A stretch of 64,000 nt of DNA from Escherichia coli (GCF_003334305.1 NZ_QOWS01000001.1); one strand, 5' to 3'; positions 23,707 through 29,419 are shown, counted from the stretch's first letter. Notes: a model not told the origin generated them from the sequence alone. A program made the numbers and translations.

Positions 23707-24552
23707 ATGATAAATGTAAGAAAAATAGCAAAATTAATTATTGGCGATAATTTGTATTGGAAGTTGAAGTTTTTTTATGCCACTAAAAAATGGCCTAATA
23801 TTTATGATCCAACTTTTTTTAATGAAAAAGTTCGCTGGCGAATGCTGCACGACCAAAATTATCTTTATGTTAAATGCGCTGATAAGTATGAGGTCAGGAA
23901 CTATATTGAGAAAAAAATTGGCAGTGAATATTTAGTTCCGCTTCGTTATATGTTTACTAATAATGATGATATTACTGATAAATGTATTCTGAGTAATAGT
24001 GTAGCAAAGTCTAACCATGGTGCAGGTATGATAGAGTTCATTCCTGAGACGTATTCATTAAGCGAGTTGAAGAATACTTTTGGAAAATGGCTAAATCTTG
24101 ACTATACCTCCGAGTCCAATGAAAAACATTATAGTAGGATTCCGAGAAAAATTCTTATTGAAGAGTCTTTGTGTAAGGAGGGAAAACCTCCTGTCGATTA
24201 TAAATTTCATACATTTAAACAAGCAGATGGTTCATTTCGTTTTGTTCTTCAGTTGGTAAATGGTCGGTTTCATAATGAATCAAGAGGTTATTATCTGGAG
24301 GATCTTAATAAATGCATATGGTCTCATGGTGAAGGTTTTCATTCTATTCCACAAGAGCATATAAAACCTTTAAAAAAGGCTATGGAATTGTCATCAATTC
24401 TATGTGAAGATTTTAATTACGTACGAGTTGATTGGTATATCTATGATAATAAGCTTTATTTTGGTGAATTAACCTTTACACCTGGTGCTGGAAGTTCATA
24501 TGAATTTGGTAATGAGCTTGAAAAATTAATGGCCAAATATTGGCAGTTGTAA
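23707..24552 (+). CDS. TupA-like ATP-grasp family protein (putative polysaccharide amidoligase), first gene of galF-gnd cluster
   Basis: 281 aa; NEKxxWxxL, KSNHGAG and RVDWYIYDNKLYFGELTFTPGAG motifs resembling TupA-like ATP-grasp proteins (recalled, not searched); very AT-rich. Confidence 0.55.
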   Translation: MINVRKIAKLIIGDNLYWKLKFFYATKKWPNIYDPTFFNEKVRWRMLHDQNYLYVKCADKYEVRNYIEKKIGSEYLVPLRYMFTNNDDITDKCILSNSVAKSNHGAGMIEFIPETYSLSELKNTFGKWLNLDYTSESNEKHYSRIPRKILIEESLCKEGKPPVDYKFHTFKQADGSFRFVLQLVNGRFHNESRGYYLEDLNKCIWSHGEGFHSIPQEHIKPLKKAMELSSILCEDFNYVRVDWYIYDNKLYFGELTFTPGAGSSYEFGNELEKLMAKYWQL

Positions 24553-24553
24553 A

Positions 24554-25855
24554 ATGAAAATAATATATAACACACTTTGGATGATATTTGAAAAATTAGT
24601 ATTATCCCTATCTTTATTAATCATTAATGCCTATGTTGCGAGATATTTAGGGCCTCAGCAATATGGGGTTATAGCCTATTCTATTACACTGCTCAGTATT
24701 TCTGTGGTTATTAGTAATTTTGGCACTAACACATTAATTTTCCAAAAAATAAGCAAAAATCACAGTGTTGCAAAAATCATTATACCGCCGATACAGATAT
24801 TGAAAACAATATTATACATAATATGTATACTTATTATGTTTTTCTGTTTATATATTTTTAGTTATGATTTTGATCCTTATCTGACATTTGGTTTAGCTGT
24901 AGCATTTTACTTTCAAGCTATTGATAGCTATACATGGTATAATGATGCAAAATTGAAATCAAAGTACAATAGTCTTATTAATACAATAGCCTTAATAGGT
25001 GCTATTATAAGTCGTTACTATTTGGTAAAACTATCGATGGATTTAAAATGGTTTGCTATTCCTTATGTATGCAATTACGGGATATCTTTTTTACTGAAAA
25101 GATATTTTTATATTAAAGAAGAAAAAACTAAAAGCATCAAATCATTTATATTTGAAAAAAAAGATCATACACTAAAAGTTATATCTTTCTTTATAATTTC
25201 AGGTGCGCCATTATTTTTAAGTGAAATATCAATTCTTATTTATACAAGACTTACAAACTTATATCTAGGACAAATTAAAGATATTGATGCGGTCGGCATA
25301 TTCAATGCATCTTATGTTTTAGCTACTGCCTGGACAGTCGTTCCTTTGGCATTTGTTACGAGTGTCTTTACTATAATCTATAAAGAAAAGGATATTTCTA
25401 ACAGGGCTTTAATTGGAACATTCTTGACTTTGTTGATGTTGTTTTTTGGTTTTTTACTTGTCATATTGTGTTATTTTTTCAAACAACAGATTATCAGTAT
25501 TGTATATGGCTCCGGTTTCGAGTTATCTTCTTCTATATTACCTGTACTTATTCTTGGCTCAGTTTTCTCTCTTTTAGGTGTTATTTCCTATCGGATGATA
25601 ATATCAATGCATGGGTACAAATATATAGCAAAAAAGATGGTTATTATGGGGGTGATAAGTATTCCATTAAATTATTATCTTATTAAATCGTTAGGTATTA
25701 TTGGTGCAGCTTATGCTACAGTTAGTATTGAACTTATATCAGCCACATTGGCGAATTATTTTTTTAAAGGTGGGGTGATTGCAAAAATGCATTTAAAAAT
25801 GATAACGTCTCCCTACAGTGTATCTATGCAAGCTATAACTAAAATACTGAAATAA
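24554..25855 (+). CDS. wzx: O-unit flippase Wzx (MOP superfamily)
   Basis: 433 aa, about 12 predicted TM helices, AT-rich, position in cluster. Confidence 0.75.
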   Translation: MKIIYNTLWMIFEKLVLSLSLLIINAYVARYLGPQQYGVIAYSITLLSISVVISNFGTNTLIFQKISKNHSVAKIIIPPIQILKTILYIICILIMFFCLYIFSYDFDPYLTFGLAVAFYFQAIDSYTWYNDAKLKSKYNSLINTIALIGAIISRYYLVKLSMDLKWFAIPYVCNYGISFLLKRYFYIKEEKTKSIKSFIFEKKDHTLKVISFFIISGAPLFLSEISILIYTRLTNLYLGQIKDIDAVGIFNASYVLATAWTVVPLAFVTSVFTIIYKEKDISNRALIGTFLTLLMLFFGFLLVILCYFFKQQIISIVYGSGFELSSSILPVLILGSVFSLLGVISYRMIISMHGYKYIAKKMVIMGVISIPLNYYLIKSLGIIGAAYATVSIELISATLANYFFKGGVIAKMHLKMITSPYSVSMQAITKILK

Positions 25856-27898: not shown

Positions 27899-28688
27899 AA
27901 ATTATATTAGAGAATTGGCGTTAAACAATCCATCAGTTCGTTTTTATGTACATATGGATGCCAAGTATCCAAATAAAATCCAATGGATTAAAAATGAATG
28001 TATTGATAACATCTATTTAATTGAAAATCCAGTTTCGGTTTACTGGGGGGGAAGTAGTCAGATTTTTGCAACTCTATTATTGATGAAGAAGGCATACAGT
28101 GATAAGAGAAATAAGTTTTTTCATCTCGTAAGTTCAGAATGCGTTCCATTAAAGTCATTTGTTGAAATTGAAAACGAATGGAGCATGAATGAAAACTGTC
28201 AATTTATTGAGTCGCATAGAGATAAAAATAATGAGTGGAGACTAAAGGTTCGGGTCCCTCACTCAAATACGAAGTATCTTAGGACTTTTTTAGGACGATG
28301 TGCCAATAAACTCTTTAAAGTAACTACTTTTTTATGGGATAGTGTAGGTTTAAATCCCGAAAACTATTTTTTTGGTTCCCAATGGTTTTCGGTAACTAGA
28401 AATTTTGTTGAGCAAGTAATAGATGAAGATAATGAAGATTTTTTTAAAACATTCCATAATATAACTTGTGCAGATGAGCATGCTTTTGCTATTTTTGCAC
28501 GAACAAAATATTCTAACCCGAATGATATTCAAGATAACAATAAAAGATTCATTAAGTTTTTAGGTAAGTCAAGTCCAGAATATTTAAGTTTAGATCAAGT
28601 GGGGCAGATTAAGAATCTTAACTCGTATTGGTTTTGCAGGAAGGTGAGATGTAATGATTTATTAAAAATAATAAGGCAGGAGAAGTGA
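27855..28688 (+). CDS. Putative glycosyltransferase, possibly GT14 / Branch-domain type
   Basis: 277 aa; motifs VYWGGSSQ and FFGSQWF reminiscent of Core-2/I-branching family; assignment tentative; start may be the Met at 27861. Confidence 0.45.
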   Translation: MKMKTAVLIQAHKNENYIRELALNNPSVRFYVHMDAKYPNKIQWIKNECIDNIYLIENPVSVYWGGSSQIFATLLLMKKAYSDKRNKFFHLVSSECVPLKSFVEIENEWSMNENCQFIESHRDKNNEWRLKVRVPHSNTKYLRTFLGRCANKLFKVTTFLWDSVGLNPENYFFGSQWFSVTRNFVEQVIDEDNEDFFKTFHNITCADEHAFAIFARTKYSNPNDIQDNNKRFIKFLGKSSPEYLSLDQVGQIKNLNSYWFCRKVRCNDLLKIIRQEK

Positions 28689-29419
28689 TTATGCTTTTTT
28701 CTATCATTATGCCGGCATATAATTCACAGGCAACAATAAAAGAAAGTATAGCATCCGTGCTTAATCAGACATATCAAAATTTTGAATTAATTATAATTAA
28801 TGATAATTCAAGTGACGCAACTTTATCGATAATAACAAATTTCTGTCATGATAGAAGGATTCTTGTATTAAATAATGAGGAAAATATGGGAGTGGCACAC
28901 TCTCGTAACAGAGGATTGGAAATGGCATCTGGAGAAATAATTGCCTTTCTGGATAGTGACGATATATGGTACCCCAATAAATTGGAAGAGCAATATAATT
29001 GTTTTCTTTCTGGTCACAAAATTGTCTGCTCTTATTATGATGTAATTGACTCTGAAGGGGATATTGTTGGAACAAGAAATGCACCTACACTCGTTACATT
29101 TGAAAAAATGCTTAAAAGTAATTTTATAGGTAACTTGACTGGTGCATATGCCTCCTCTTTTTTTGGAAAATGTTATCAGAGAAATATTGGGCATGAGGAT
29201 TATATTATGTGGTTGGAATTGGTAAAAAAACAACCTGCTTATTGCATTAAAAATAAACTAGCCGCATACCGAATTTCAAATAAATCTCTTTCTTCTAATA
29301 AAATGAAAGTGGTAATTTGGCAATGGAAAATATATCGTAAAGTATTAGGTATGAATATTATCAAGTCTTTATATTACTTCTTGAATTATATATATTTTGC
29401 GATAAAAAAAAGAAACTAA
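28685..29419 (+). CDS. Glycosyltransferase family 2
   Basis: 244 aa; IMPAYNS and DSDD motifs typical of GT2. Confidence 0.75.
   Translation: MIMLFSIIMPAYNSQATIKESIASVLNQTYQNFELIIINDNSSDATLSIITNFCHDRRILVLNNEENMGVAHSRNRGLEMASGEIIAFLDSDDIWYPNKLEEQYNCFLSGHKIVCSYYDVIDSEGDIVGTRNAPTLVTFEKMLKSNFIGNLTGAYASSFFGKCYQRNIGHEDYIMWLELVKKQPAYCIKNKLAAYRISNKSLSSNKMKVVIWQWKIYRKVLGMNIIKSLYYFLNYIYFAIKKRN

What the first reader, a model, noticed from the sequence alone, without database searches (positions are those of the whole stretch)
23707..29419. AT-rich six-gene Wzx/Wzy cluster at galF-gnd with an amidoligase but no sugar-precursor genes
Between the JUMPstart and gnd lie six very AT-rich genes: a TupA-like ATP-grasp protein, wzx, a GT2, wzy, a putative GT14-like GT and a second GT2. 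There are no nucleotide-sugar synthesis genes inside the cluster, so precursors must come from flanking housekeeping genes: gne for UDP-GalNAc, ugd for UDP-GlcA, manCB and gmd/fcl for GDP-Man and GDP-Fuc. Three GTs plus WecA initiation would predict a tetrasaccharide repeat, and the ATP-grasp gene predicts an amide-linked substituent. From memory this resembles the six-ORF group 4 (K-LPS) clusters such as K40, whose repeat carries serine amide-linked to GlcA, but I cannot confirm the match. It is the least-characterised part of the window.
Basis: partly seen in the sequence, partly recalled or inferred. Interest (0 to 1): 0.6.

Follow-up and report, generated by a model that had tools for sequence, protein, structure and literature searches.

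The report
Known O46/O134 sugar-coat locus, O8 strain
This is the already published E. coli O46/O134 surface-polysaccharide gene cluster, whose polymer carries an amino acid (D-allo-threonine) amide-linked to glucuronic acid; the one twist is that this chromosome also holds a complete O8 O-antigen cluster, so here it probably acts as a capsule-type (K) antigen.

Summary
Six co-directional, tightly packed ORFs (23707-29419) lie behind a JUMPstart/ops element. Their GC is 29.7% against 49.1% for the window. They encode a TupA-like ATP-grasp protein, Wzx, GT2, Wzy, a GT14/Branch transferase and a second GT2, with no nucleotide-sugar genes.

The cluster is not uncharacterised. It is 100% identical to clusters in several complete E. 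coli genomes and 97.3-99.7% identical to others, where RefSeq names wzx/wzy 'O46/O134 family'. The title of the published O46/O134 structure paper says both polymers contain D-glucuronoyl-D-allothreonine.

The K40 analogy holds for architecture only. The window also carries a complete O8 mannan cluster (34623-46703) between wzzB and his, which is the classic group IB/4 K-antigen layout. All 8 genomes with the window's allele have O8; the other 9 do not. Identity with K40 itself could not be tested and is unlikely, because all three GT families are inverting and the matched polymer carries threonine rather than serine.

Still open: biochemical proof for ORF1, the source of D-allo-threonine (no racemase in the cluster or window), and which K antigen O8 strains display.

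Verdict: already known, low interest.

The parts
23659..23695 (+). JUMPstart sequence ending in the ops element (GGCGGTAG, 23685-23692). This is the RfaH-dependent antitermination signal in front of the cluster.
   Evidence: Pattern search found 2 hits in the window against 0.32 expected. The sequence was read directly.
23707..24552 (+). ORF1, 281 aa, a stand-alone TupA-like ATP-grasp amidoligase. Its predicted role is ATP-dependent amidation of the GlcA C6 carboxylate with (D-allo-)threonine.
   Evidence: Pfam PF14305, 1e-31. RefSeq name 'ATP-grasp fold amidoligase family protein'. AlphaFold model with pLDDT 93, closest to D-Ala-D-Ala ligases in the PDB. Invariant K101, E139, K166, H168, R240, D242 and E254 across 39 homologues.
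24554..25855 (+). wzx, the O-unit flippase (433 aa).
   Evidence: Pfam Polysacc_synt, 6e-17. RefSeq name 'O46/O134 family O-antigen flippase'; 100% aa identity to NCTC11121.
25857..26762 (+). GT2 glycosyltransferase (301 aa), an inverting family.
   Evidence: NCBIfam GT2-type hits, all below the equivalog cut-offs. PDB sequence hits to PglI and to the K4CP GT2 domain.
26759..27898 (+). wzy, the O-unit polymerase (379 aa, GTG start).
   Evidence: About 12 hydrophobic segments. Weak TIGR04370 and Wzy_C hits. RefSeq name 'O46/O134 family O-antigen polymerase'.
27855..28688 (+). GT14 / Core-2 I-branching family glycosyltransferase (277 aa), an inverting family.
   Evidence: Pfam Branch PF02485, 9e-26. 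Weak sequence match to mouse C2GnT structures 3otk/2gak.
28691..29419 (+). Second GT2 glycosyltransferase (242 aa from the RefSeq ATG; the mechanical ORF starts at GTG 28685). It is a candidate beta-glucuronosyltransferase.
   Evidence: TuaG (teichuronic acid) model at 6e-58, below its cut-off. The best PDB hit is residues 375-574 of chondroitin synthase K4CP, followed by heparosan synthase. The donor assignment is inference only.
21268..22263 (+). Context: gnu, the Und-PP-GlcNAc 4-epimerase, upstream of galF. It implies GalNAc as the initiating sugar.
   Evidence: RefSeq product name in regions 99.99% identical to the window. Its role is described in PMC7685785.
31193..32359 (+). Context: ugd, UDP-glucose 6-dehydrogenase, the supplier of UDP-GlcA.
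   Evidence: RefSeq annotation of the identical region.
32505..33482 (+). Context: wzzB, the chain-length regulator for the Wzy-dependent polymer.
   Evidence: NCBIfam NF012015, 594.7 bits against a cut-off of 267.
34534..46703 (+). Context: a second ops element (34534-34541) followed by a complete O8-type ABC-transporter mannan O-antigen cluster (manC, manB, wzm, wzt, the wbdD-like methyltransferase, the 1213-aa wbdA-like GT, wbdB, wbdC). It lies between wzzB and hisIE.
   Evidence: ORF list and ops hit. 99.2% identity to STEC005, where RefSeq names wzm/wzt 'O8 family' and also annotates wbdC.

Best explanation
The six genes are the E. coli O46/O134-type Wzx/Wzy-dependent polysaccharide cluster.

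Proposed mechanism; only the gene identities and cluster identity are shown here, every biochemical step is inferred. WecA makes Und-PP-GlcNAc and the upstream Gnu epimerase converts it to Und-PP-GalNAc. Three inverting glycosyltransferases (GT2, GT14-like, GT2) then add three sugars, one of them GlcA from Ugd-made UDP-GlcA. The last GT2 is the best candidate GlcA transferase. The stand-alone ATP-grasp enzyme ORF1 activates the GlcA C6 carboxylate as an acyl phosphate and couples it to the amino group of threonine; the published polymer carries D-allo-threonine. Wzx flips the unit, Wzy polymerises it, WzzB sets the chain length, and RfaH acting at the ops element drives transcription.

This chromosome also carries a complete O8 mannan cluster next to his. 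The polymer is therefore expected to be displayed together with O8 as a group 4 (formerly IB) type K antigen, either as K-LPS or as an O-antigen capsule, rather than as the strain's only O antigen.
For: Cluster identity. Megablast gives 100% identity over 6141 bp to STEC005, TUM1887 and DETEC-E601, 99.7% to NCTC11121 and NCTC9966, and 97.3-97.5% to six further genomes. One more, SCU-485, is 95.9% identical and its copy is riddled with frameshifts. All have wzx/wzy named 'O46/O134 family'. Per-protein identities are 95-100%.

Chemistry. The title of the O46/O134 structure paper says both polymers contain D-glucuronoyl-D-allothreonine.

ORF1. It gives a full-length PF14305 hit. The predicted structure is a confident ATP-grasp fold closest to D-Ala-D-Ala ligases, and charged residues are invariant across homologues. 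The TupA-like ATP-grasp domain of C. jejuni Cj1438 has been shown biochemically to form an amide at the GlcA C6 carboxylate (PMC11800379). The family is described as typical of polysaccharide loci and predicted to add amino acids (PMC12632600). ORF1 homologues sit next to wzx and ugd in O-antigen loci of Kluyvera and Providencia.

Glycosyltransferases.

Gnu role.

Dual-cluster layout. The O8 cluster is present in the window and in all 8 complete genomes with the window's allele. It is absent from the 9 genomes with the other two alleles. The literature states that the O8/O9 clusters lie between gnd and hisI, and that the wzx/wzy genes of O8 strains are directed to capsule formation.
Against: No experiment on ORF1 of this cluster is known to me, so its substrate and the timing of amidation are inferred.

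The published amino acid is the D-allo isomer, yet neither the cluster nor the window encodes a racemase or epimerase. The supply step is unexplained.

I could not read the structure paper or its 2016 corrigendum. The number and linkages of sugars, and the O46 versus O134 difference, are therefore unverified.

Expression as a K antigen needs WaaL competition and/or the gfc operon, which lie outside the window.

The window's proteins differ from the non-O8 NCTC allele at 6 residues: ORF1 S206Y, ORF3 V274M, Wzy F11L and I118F, ORF6 D124N and Y235C. In principle these could change the polymer.
Confidence: 0.8

Rival explanations
1. The cluster is the K40 locus itself, or an allele of it. It would make the serine-amidated GlcA-GlcNAc-GlcNAc polymer of E. 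coli O8:K40.
For: The layout matches what I recall of Amor & Whitfield 1997: six ORFs in the order unknown gene, wzx, GT, wzy, GT, GT between galF and gnd, followed by gnd-ugd-wzz, then rfb-O8, then his. This window shows exactly that layout. One member of the ORF1 protein cluster is labelled 'E. coli O8:H21'.
Against: The cluster is 99.7% identical to that of non-O8 NCTC strains and is named O46/O134 by RefSeq. That polymer is reported to carry D-allo-threonine, not serine. All three GTs belong to inverting families, GT2 and GT14. The K40 repeat, as I recall it, has two alpha-GlcNAc linkages and no GalNAc, which would need a retaining GT and no Gnu. No K40 sequence was available, so identity was never directly tested.
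Confidence: 0.08
2. In this O8 background the six-gene cluster is a silent or decaying remnant of a former O46/O134 O-antigen locus, and only O8 mannan is made.
For: Three of the 8 O8-linked genomes have wzx or wzy annotated as frameshifted: A7, H15 and FCI51.
Against: All six ORFs are intact in the window and in STEC005, TUM1887, DETEC-E601, strain 41 and A28. Every frameshift lies in a homopolymer run, as expected from long-read sequencing errors, and similar 'frameshifts' occur in non-O8 genomes. The JUMPstart/ops element is intact. The allele is nearly invariant, with 0-3 substitutions in 6.1 kb, across isolates from goat, beef, echidna, orangutan, a sink and human urine on several continents.
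Confidence: 0.1
3. ORF1 is not the amidoligase for the polymer. It might act on another substrate or be a misnamed glycosyltransferase, as many database entries call its relatives, with the amino acid added by an unlinked enzyme.
For: There is no biochemical test of ORF1. Many homologues are annotated 'glycosyltransferase'. A TupA-like protein in Klebsiella has been linked to fimbrial modification rather than to polysaccharide.
Against: The fold is ATP-grasp, not a GT fold. It is the only non-GT, non-processing gene in a cluster whose product carries exactly one non-sugar amide substituent. A related domain has proven GlcA amidoligase activity. The gene is syntenic with wzx and ugd in other genera.
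Confidence: 0.05

Closest known systems
E. coli O46/O134 O-antigen gene cluster (structure and cluster paper: Perepelov et al. 2015, Carbohydr Res 409:20; O46/O134 listed as a 98-99.9% identical pair by DebRoy et al. 2016, PMC4732683)
   Same: The same six genes in the same order at galF-gnd. Nucleotide identity is 97.3-99.7% and protein identity 95-100%. RefSeq names wzx/wzy 'O46/O134 family'. The polymer is reported to contain D-GlcA amidated with D-allo-threonine.
   Different: In the window, and in all 8 complete genomes with its allele, a full O8 cluster is also present, so the locus is not the sole O-antigen determinant. Six amino-acid substitutions separate it from the non-O8 NCTC allele.
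E. coli O8:K40 group IB/4 K-antigen locus (Amor & Whitfield 1997, Mol Microbiol 26:145; details from memory, paper not held)
   Same: A Wzx/Wzy cluster of six ORFs at galF-gnd. The colanic acid genes are retained upstream, gnd-ugd-wzz lie downstream, and rfb-O8 sits next to his. The polymer has an amino acid amide-linked to GlcA.
   Different: K40 carries L-serine and, as I recall, alpha-linked GlcNAc residues. The cluster here matches O46/O134 (threonine) and encodes only inverting GT families. Sequence identity was not testable.
C. jejuni HS:2 Cj1438 C-terminal TupA-like ATP-grasp amidoligase (PMC11800379)
   Same: The same Pfam family. It shows experimentally demonstrated ATP-dependent amide formation on the C6 carboxylate of GlcA in a surface polysaccharide.
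   Different: Cj1438 is a three-domain protein fused to a GT2 and uses ethanolamine phosphate or serinol phosphate. ORF1 is a stand-alone 281-aa protein and presumably uses an amino acid. Cj1438 did not appear among the top 50 AFDB50 structural neighbours.
Bacillus halodurans TupA and Proteus mirabilis WemR (TupA-like ATP-grasp proteins of polysaccharide loci; mentioned in PMC12632600)
   Same: The same family, and the same predicted role of adding amino acids to cell-surface polymers.
   Different: No direct comparison was run. The organisms and polymers differ, and their functions are also largely predicted.
E. coli O110 O antigen (D-GalA amidated with D-allo-threonine; Perepelov et al. 2013, cited in PMC7685785)
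   Same: The same unusual amino acid amide-linked to a uronic acid in an E. coli O antigen.
   Different: The uronic acid is GalA, not GlcA. The cluster sequence was not compared.

Membership tests
E. coli O46/O134 O-antigen gene cluster | The same six genes in the same order between galF and gnd. | tested here: met
   17 complete genomes have identical gene order and RefSeq product names.
E. coli O46/O134 O-antigen gene cluster | wzx and wzy nearly identical to the serogroup reference alleles. | tested here: met
   Wzx is 100% and Wzy 99.5% identical (2 substitutions) to the NCTC11121/NCTC9966 allele, and 98.2% and 96.8% (12 substitutions) to the second allele. The exact window proteins are named 'O46/O134 family' in NCBI.
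E. coli O46/O134 O-antigen gene cluster | The polymer contains D-glucuronoyl-D-allothreonine. | not testable with these tools
   Known only from the title of Perepelov 2015, as cited in PMC7685785. The paper itself is not held.
E. coli O46/O134 O-antigen gene cluster | It is the strain's only O-antigen locus, so it defines the O serogroup. | tested here: not met
   A complete O8 wzm/wzt cluster lies at 34623-46703.
Group 4 (formerly IB) K-antigen locus of O8/O9 E. coli | A Wzx/Wzy cluster at galF-gnd behind a JUMPstart, with no wzi-wza-wzb-wzc, and with the colanic acid genes retained upstream. | tested here: met
   for the cluster and JUMPstart. The wca genes upstream appear.
Group 4 (formerly IB) K-antigen locus of O8/O9 E. 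coli | A co-resident ABC-transporter O8/O9 rfb cluster between wzz and his, with wzz present. | tested here: met
.
Group 4 (formerly IB) K-antigen locus of O8/O9 E. coli | The polymer is displayed as K-LPS and/or as a gfc-dependent capsule alongside the O8 mannan. | not testable with these tools
   This needs serology or chemistry. The gfc operon lies outside the window and was not examined.
K40 biosynthesis cluster specifically | Sequence identity to the deposited K40 cluster. | not testable with these tools
   No K40 sequence could be reached. A distant blastn of ORF1 against 5426 E. coli genomes found only the O46/O134 alleles and one unrelated rml-containing cluster.
K40 biosynthesis cluster specifically | A glycosyltransferase set compatible with the K40 repeat (beta-GlcA plus two alpha-GlcNAc, as I recall it), that is, at least one retaining GT. 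| tested here: not met
   The three GTs are GT2, GT14/Branch and GT2, all inverting CAZy families. The K40 structure itself rests on my memory.
TupA-like ATP-grasp amidoligase (Pfam PF14305) | A full-length match to the family profile. | tested here: met
   E=9.9e-32, covering model positions 1-237 of 241.
TupA-like ATP-grasp amidoligase (Pfam PF14305) | An ATP-grasp fold with conserved charged residues. | tested here: met
   The model has pLDDT 93.2 and pTM 0.90. The top PDB matches are D-Ala-D-Ala ligases at E about 1e-7. Invariant residues include K101, E139, K166, H168, R240, D242 and E254; their catalytic roles are inferred.
TupA-like ATP-grasp amidoligase (Pfam PF14305) | ATP-dependent amide formation on a uronic acid of a polysaccharide. 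| not testable with these tools
   This activity is shown only for the related Cj1438 domain.

The most novel reading that the evidence does not exclude
Two things are not excluded.

(a) The O46/O134-type locus leads a double life. It would be the O antigen in two E. coli lineages and a hitherto unassigned group 4 K antigen in a widespread O8 lineage (8 of 17 complete genomes). In silico serotyping would then give such strains two O types, and one of the poorly characterised O8-associated K antigens would be chemically an O46/O134 polysaccharide.

(b) ORF1 is a D-amino-acid-specific glucuronate amidoligase fed by an unidentified core E. coli threonine alpha-epimerase activity, or epimerisation happens after ligation. 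No racemase travels with the cluster through three different chromosomal backgrounds.
Probability: 0.3. Interest if true: 0.35.

Novelty: already known. Interest (0 to 1): 0.18.

Why it matters
It matters little for discovery: both the cluster and the chemistry it encodes are published.

It has some practical value. Genome-based serotyping will report both O8 and O46/O134 for strains like this one. It would be useful to know that the Wzx/Wzy locus is probably a K-type antigen here.

The stand-alone ATP-grasp gene is a clean, small candidate for the first biochemical characterisation of an amino-acid:glucuronate amidoligase in E. coli. The missing source of D-allo-threonine is a real, if narrow, open question.

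Tried and rejected
- Structure paper. I tried to read Perepelov 2015 and its corrigendum, by PubMed id and by DOI. It is not held, so the repeat-unit structure, the O46 versus O134 difference and the authors' gene assignments remain unverified.
- Other sources for the structure. The Liu 2020 review has no supplements held and does not discuss O46/O134 in its text. Text searches for aThr/GlcA found nothing useful.
- K40 literature. I tried Amor & Whitfield 1997 and Orskov 1977; neither is held.
- Database searches with no result. NCBIfam gave no hit for ORF1, Wzx or ORF5. A PDB sequence search with ORF1 gave nothing significant.
- Link to Cj1438. An AFDB50 fold search was run partly to recover Cj1438 as a neighbour; it was not in the top 50.
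- Decay hypothesis. I considered that the cluster is decaying in O8 strains and rejected it, because every frameshift is in a homopolymer run.
- Origin of L002. I considered that L002, a 58-77% identical syntenic cluster, might be K40. I rejected this because its galF is only about 81% identical to E. coli galF, so it comes from another genus.
- ORF1 substitution. I checked whether the single ORF1 substitution separating the O8-linked allele from the NCTC allele (S206Y) falls on a conserved residue. It does not.

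
Full report
**1. Observation**

The stated interval holds six + strand ORFs that abut or overlap by a few bases: 23707-24552, 24554-25855, 25857-26762, 26759-27898, 27855-28688 and 28685-29419. RefSeq starts the last one at the ATG at 28691. GC falls from about 50% in galF and gnd to 25-34% across the interval. 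The cluster averages 29.7% against 49.1% for the whole window. A JUMPstart sequence at 23659-23694 ends in the ops element GGCGGTAG, 15 nt before the first start codon. The consensus promoter and terminator scans gave nothing above background.

**2. Gene assignments**

| ORF | Assignment | Evidence |
|---|---|---|
| ORF1 | TupA-like ATP-grasp | Full-length PF14305 match, 1e-31 |
| ORF2 | Wzx-type flippase | Polysacc_synt, 6e-17 |
| ORF3 | GT2 | Many GT2 models hit, none reaching an equivalog cut-off |
| ORF4 | Wzy | About 12 hydrophobic segments; only weak Wzy-type profile hits, as usual for Wzy |
| ORF5 | Core-2/I-branching, GT14 | PF02485, 9e-26; weak match to mouse C2GnT structures |
| ORF6 | GT2 | Strongest hit is the teichuronic-acid TuaG model, 6e-58, below cut-off |

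None of the six resembles a nucleotide-sugar pathway enzyme.

**3. What it is**

Megablast of 23400-29540 against 5426 complete E. coli genomes found 17 genomes with the whole cluster. All are annotated 'O46/O134 family O-antigen flippase/polymerase', 'ATP-grasp fold amidoligase family protein', 'beta-1,6-N-acetylglucosaminyltransferase' and two GT2 proteins. The exact window proteins carry the same names in NCBI. O46 and O134 are a recognised pair of serogroups with 98-99.9% identical clusters that do not cross-react serologically (PMC4732683). [quoted passage not shown]

The cluster is therefore a characterised serogroup cluster. I could not obtain that paper or its 2016 corrigendum. The full repeat-unit structure is not verified here.

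**4. The ATP-grasp protein**

- Thirty-eight homologues at 30-77% identity align over the full length, with invariant K60, R64, K101, E139, K166, H168, R187, R240, D242, E254 and T256.
- An AlphaFold model built on that alignment is confident (pLDDT 93.2, pTM 0.90).
- Its closest solved structures are D-Ala-D-Ala and D-Ala-D-lactate ligases (E about 1e-7). These are carboxylate-amine ligases that work through an acyl phosphate.
- In AFDB50 the neighbours are TupA-like proteins from many Proteobacteria, often mislabelled 'glycosyltransferase'.
- The C-terminal TupA-like ATP-grasp domain of C. jejuni Cj1438 has been shown to form an amide on the C6 carboxylate of GlcA, using ATP with ethanolamine phosphate or serinol phosphate (PMC11800379).
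- A 2025 preprint summarises the family as typical of surface-polysaccharide loci and predicted to add amino acids.
- ORF1 homologues lie beside wzx in the Kluyvera galF-gnd-ugd locus, and between wzx and a UDP-glucose dehydrogenase gene in Providencia.

On this basis I assign ORF1 as the GlcA:threonine amidoligase. This is an inference; no experiment on this protein is known to me.

**5. The glycosyltransferases and the initiating sugar**

GT2 and GT14 are inverting CAZy families (established knowledge). The three transferases should therefore make beta linkages from alpha-linked UDP-sugars. ORF6 aligns best with residues 375-574 of chondroitin synthase K4CP, with heparosan synthase and with TuaG. 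This makes it my candidate for the GlcA transferase, at low confidence.

The gene upstream of galF (21268-22263) is annotated in identical regions as the Und-PP-GlcNAc 4-epimerase Gnu. manCB and gmd/fcl belong to other clusters, and nothing ties Man or Fuc to this polymer.

**6. Surroundings: a second O-antigen cluster**

Downstream of wzzB lies a second ops element (34534). It is followed by eight + strand ORFs (34623-46703) that run up to hisIE. The window is 99.2% identical over 32 kb to STEC005. There RefSeq annotates this stretch as manC, rfbK, 'O8 family' wzm and wzt, a methyltransferase, a 1213-aa glycosyltransferase, a GT4 and wbdC.

I then examined all 17 genomes that carry the six-gene cluster.

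| Genomes | Identity to window cluster | What follows wzzB |
|---|---|---|
| 8 with the window's allele | 99.7-100% | manC, the first gene of an rfb cluster (seen in full, and named O8 family, only in STEC005) |
| NCTC11121 and NCTC9966 | 99.7% | hisIE directly |
| 7 with the second allele | 95.9-97.5% | hisIE directly |

The window's allele differs from the NCTC allele at six residues in four proteins.

The layout in the window is colanic acid genes, gnu, galF, JUMPstart, the Wzx/Wzy cluster, gnd, ugd, wzz, rfb-O8, his. This is the arrangement described for group IB (now group 4) K antigens of O8/O9 strains. The review places the O8/O9 clusters between gnd and hisI, citing Amor & Whitfield 1997. 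DebRoy et al. state that the wzx/wzy genes of O8 strains are directed to capsule formation. In this strain the polymer is more likely a K-type antigen co-expressed with O8 than the O antigen. This is an inference; expression was not tested, and the gfc operon lies outside the window.

**7. Is it K40?**

I could not obtain a K40 sequence or the K40 paper. A distant blastn of ORF1 against all E. coli genomes found only the O46/O134 alleles and one unrelated rml-containing cluster.

Three points argue against identity with K40:
- The near-identity to the O46/O134 clusters, whose polymer carries threonine.
- The presence of Gnu.
- The absence of any retaining GT, whereas the K40 repeat as I remember it has two alpha-GlcNAc linkages.

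I put this rival at about 8%.

**8. Other rivals**

Three O8-linked genomes have 'frameshifted' wzx or wzy. All the indels lie in homopolymer runs, and the same annotation appears in non-O8 genomes. I read these as sequencing artefacts rather than decay. In the window and in five other genomes all six ORFs are intact, and the allele is almost invariant across hosts and continents.

**9. What remains unexplained**

D-allo-threonine is the C-alpha epimer of L-threonine. Neither the cluster nor the 64-kb window encodes a racemase, epimerase or PLP enzyme. The cluster sits in three chromosomal backgrounds whose flanks are only 95.8-97.2% identical to the window. The amino-acid supply must therefore come from one of three sources: a core E. 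coli activity, ORF1 itself, or a post-ligation step.

**10. Verdict**

However, the cluster and its chemistry are already published, so novelty is 'already known' and interest is low. Three small residual points remain: the O8 co-residence and which K antigen it implies, the untested ORF1 biochemistry, and the D-allo-threonine source.

Noticed in passing
window 34534-46703: A complete O8-type ABC-transporter mannan O-antigen cluster (manC, manB, wzm, wzt, methyltransferase, a 1213-aa GT, wbdB, wbdC) with its own ops element lies between wzzB and hisIE. The strain therefore has two O-antigen-type loci and would be typed in silico as both O8 and O46/O134.
   Followed up: yes
L003 8298-9161 and L004 (E. 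coli AHS8C65RI, JNE141411 and 8 other complete genomes): A different galF-gnd cluster (rmlBDAC, ATP-grasp amidoligase, flippase, EpsG-type polymerase, four GTs), with an NAD-dependent epimerase after ugd. Its amidoligase is 34% identical to ORF1. RefSeq gives no serogroup name to its wzx/wzy, so it may be another amino-acid-amidated uronic acid antigen.
   Followed up: partly
L002 (Logan SRR26673771, 6682-bp contig): A syntenic six-gene cluster with 77/68/64/58/67/66% protein identity to ORF1-6. It sits behind a galF only about 81% identical to E. coli galF, so an orthologous locus exists in another enterobacterial genus of unknown identity.
   Followed up: partly
window 23707-24552 and 27855-28688 (database names of identical or related proteins): There are annotation errors in public records. 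Members of the ORF5 (GT14/Branch) protein cluster are named 'conjugal transfer protein' in several NCBI entries. Many ORF1 relatives are named 'glycosyltransferase' although the fold is ATP-grasp.
   Followed up: no
window 25155, 26739-26850, 26867, 29158, 29404 (positions of indels in A7, H15, FCI51): Most of the indels behind the pseudogene calls for wzx/wzy/GT2 in related genomes lie in A, T or G homopolymer runs of this AT-rich cluster. They are probably long-read errors, though slipped-strand phase variation is not excluded.
   Followed up: partly
window 33483-34622: The spacer between wzzB and the O8 cluster holds a 285-bp hypothetical ORF. In STEC005 it also holds a pseudogene fragment annotated 'partial in the middle of a contig'. 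This may be a scar of the event that joined the O8 cluster to this chromosome.
   Followed up: no
window 3787-17147 versus STEC005 (L005): The colanic acid region is only 97.4% identical to STEC005, while the stretch from wcaK through the O8 cluster is 99.2% identical. This suggests a recombination breakpoint near 17.1 kb, upstream of the two antigen clusters.
   Followed up: no
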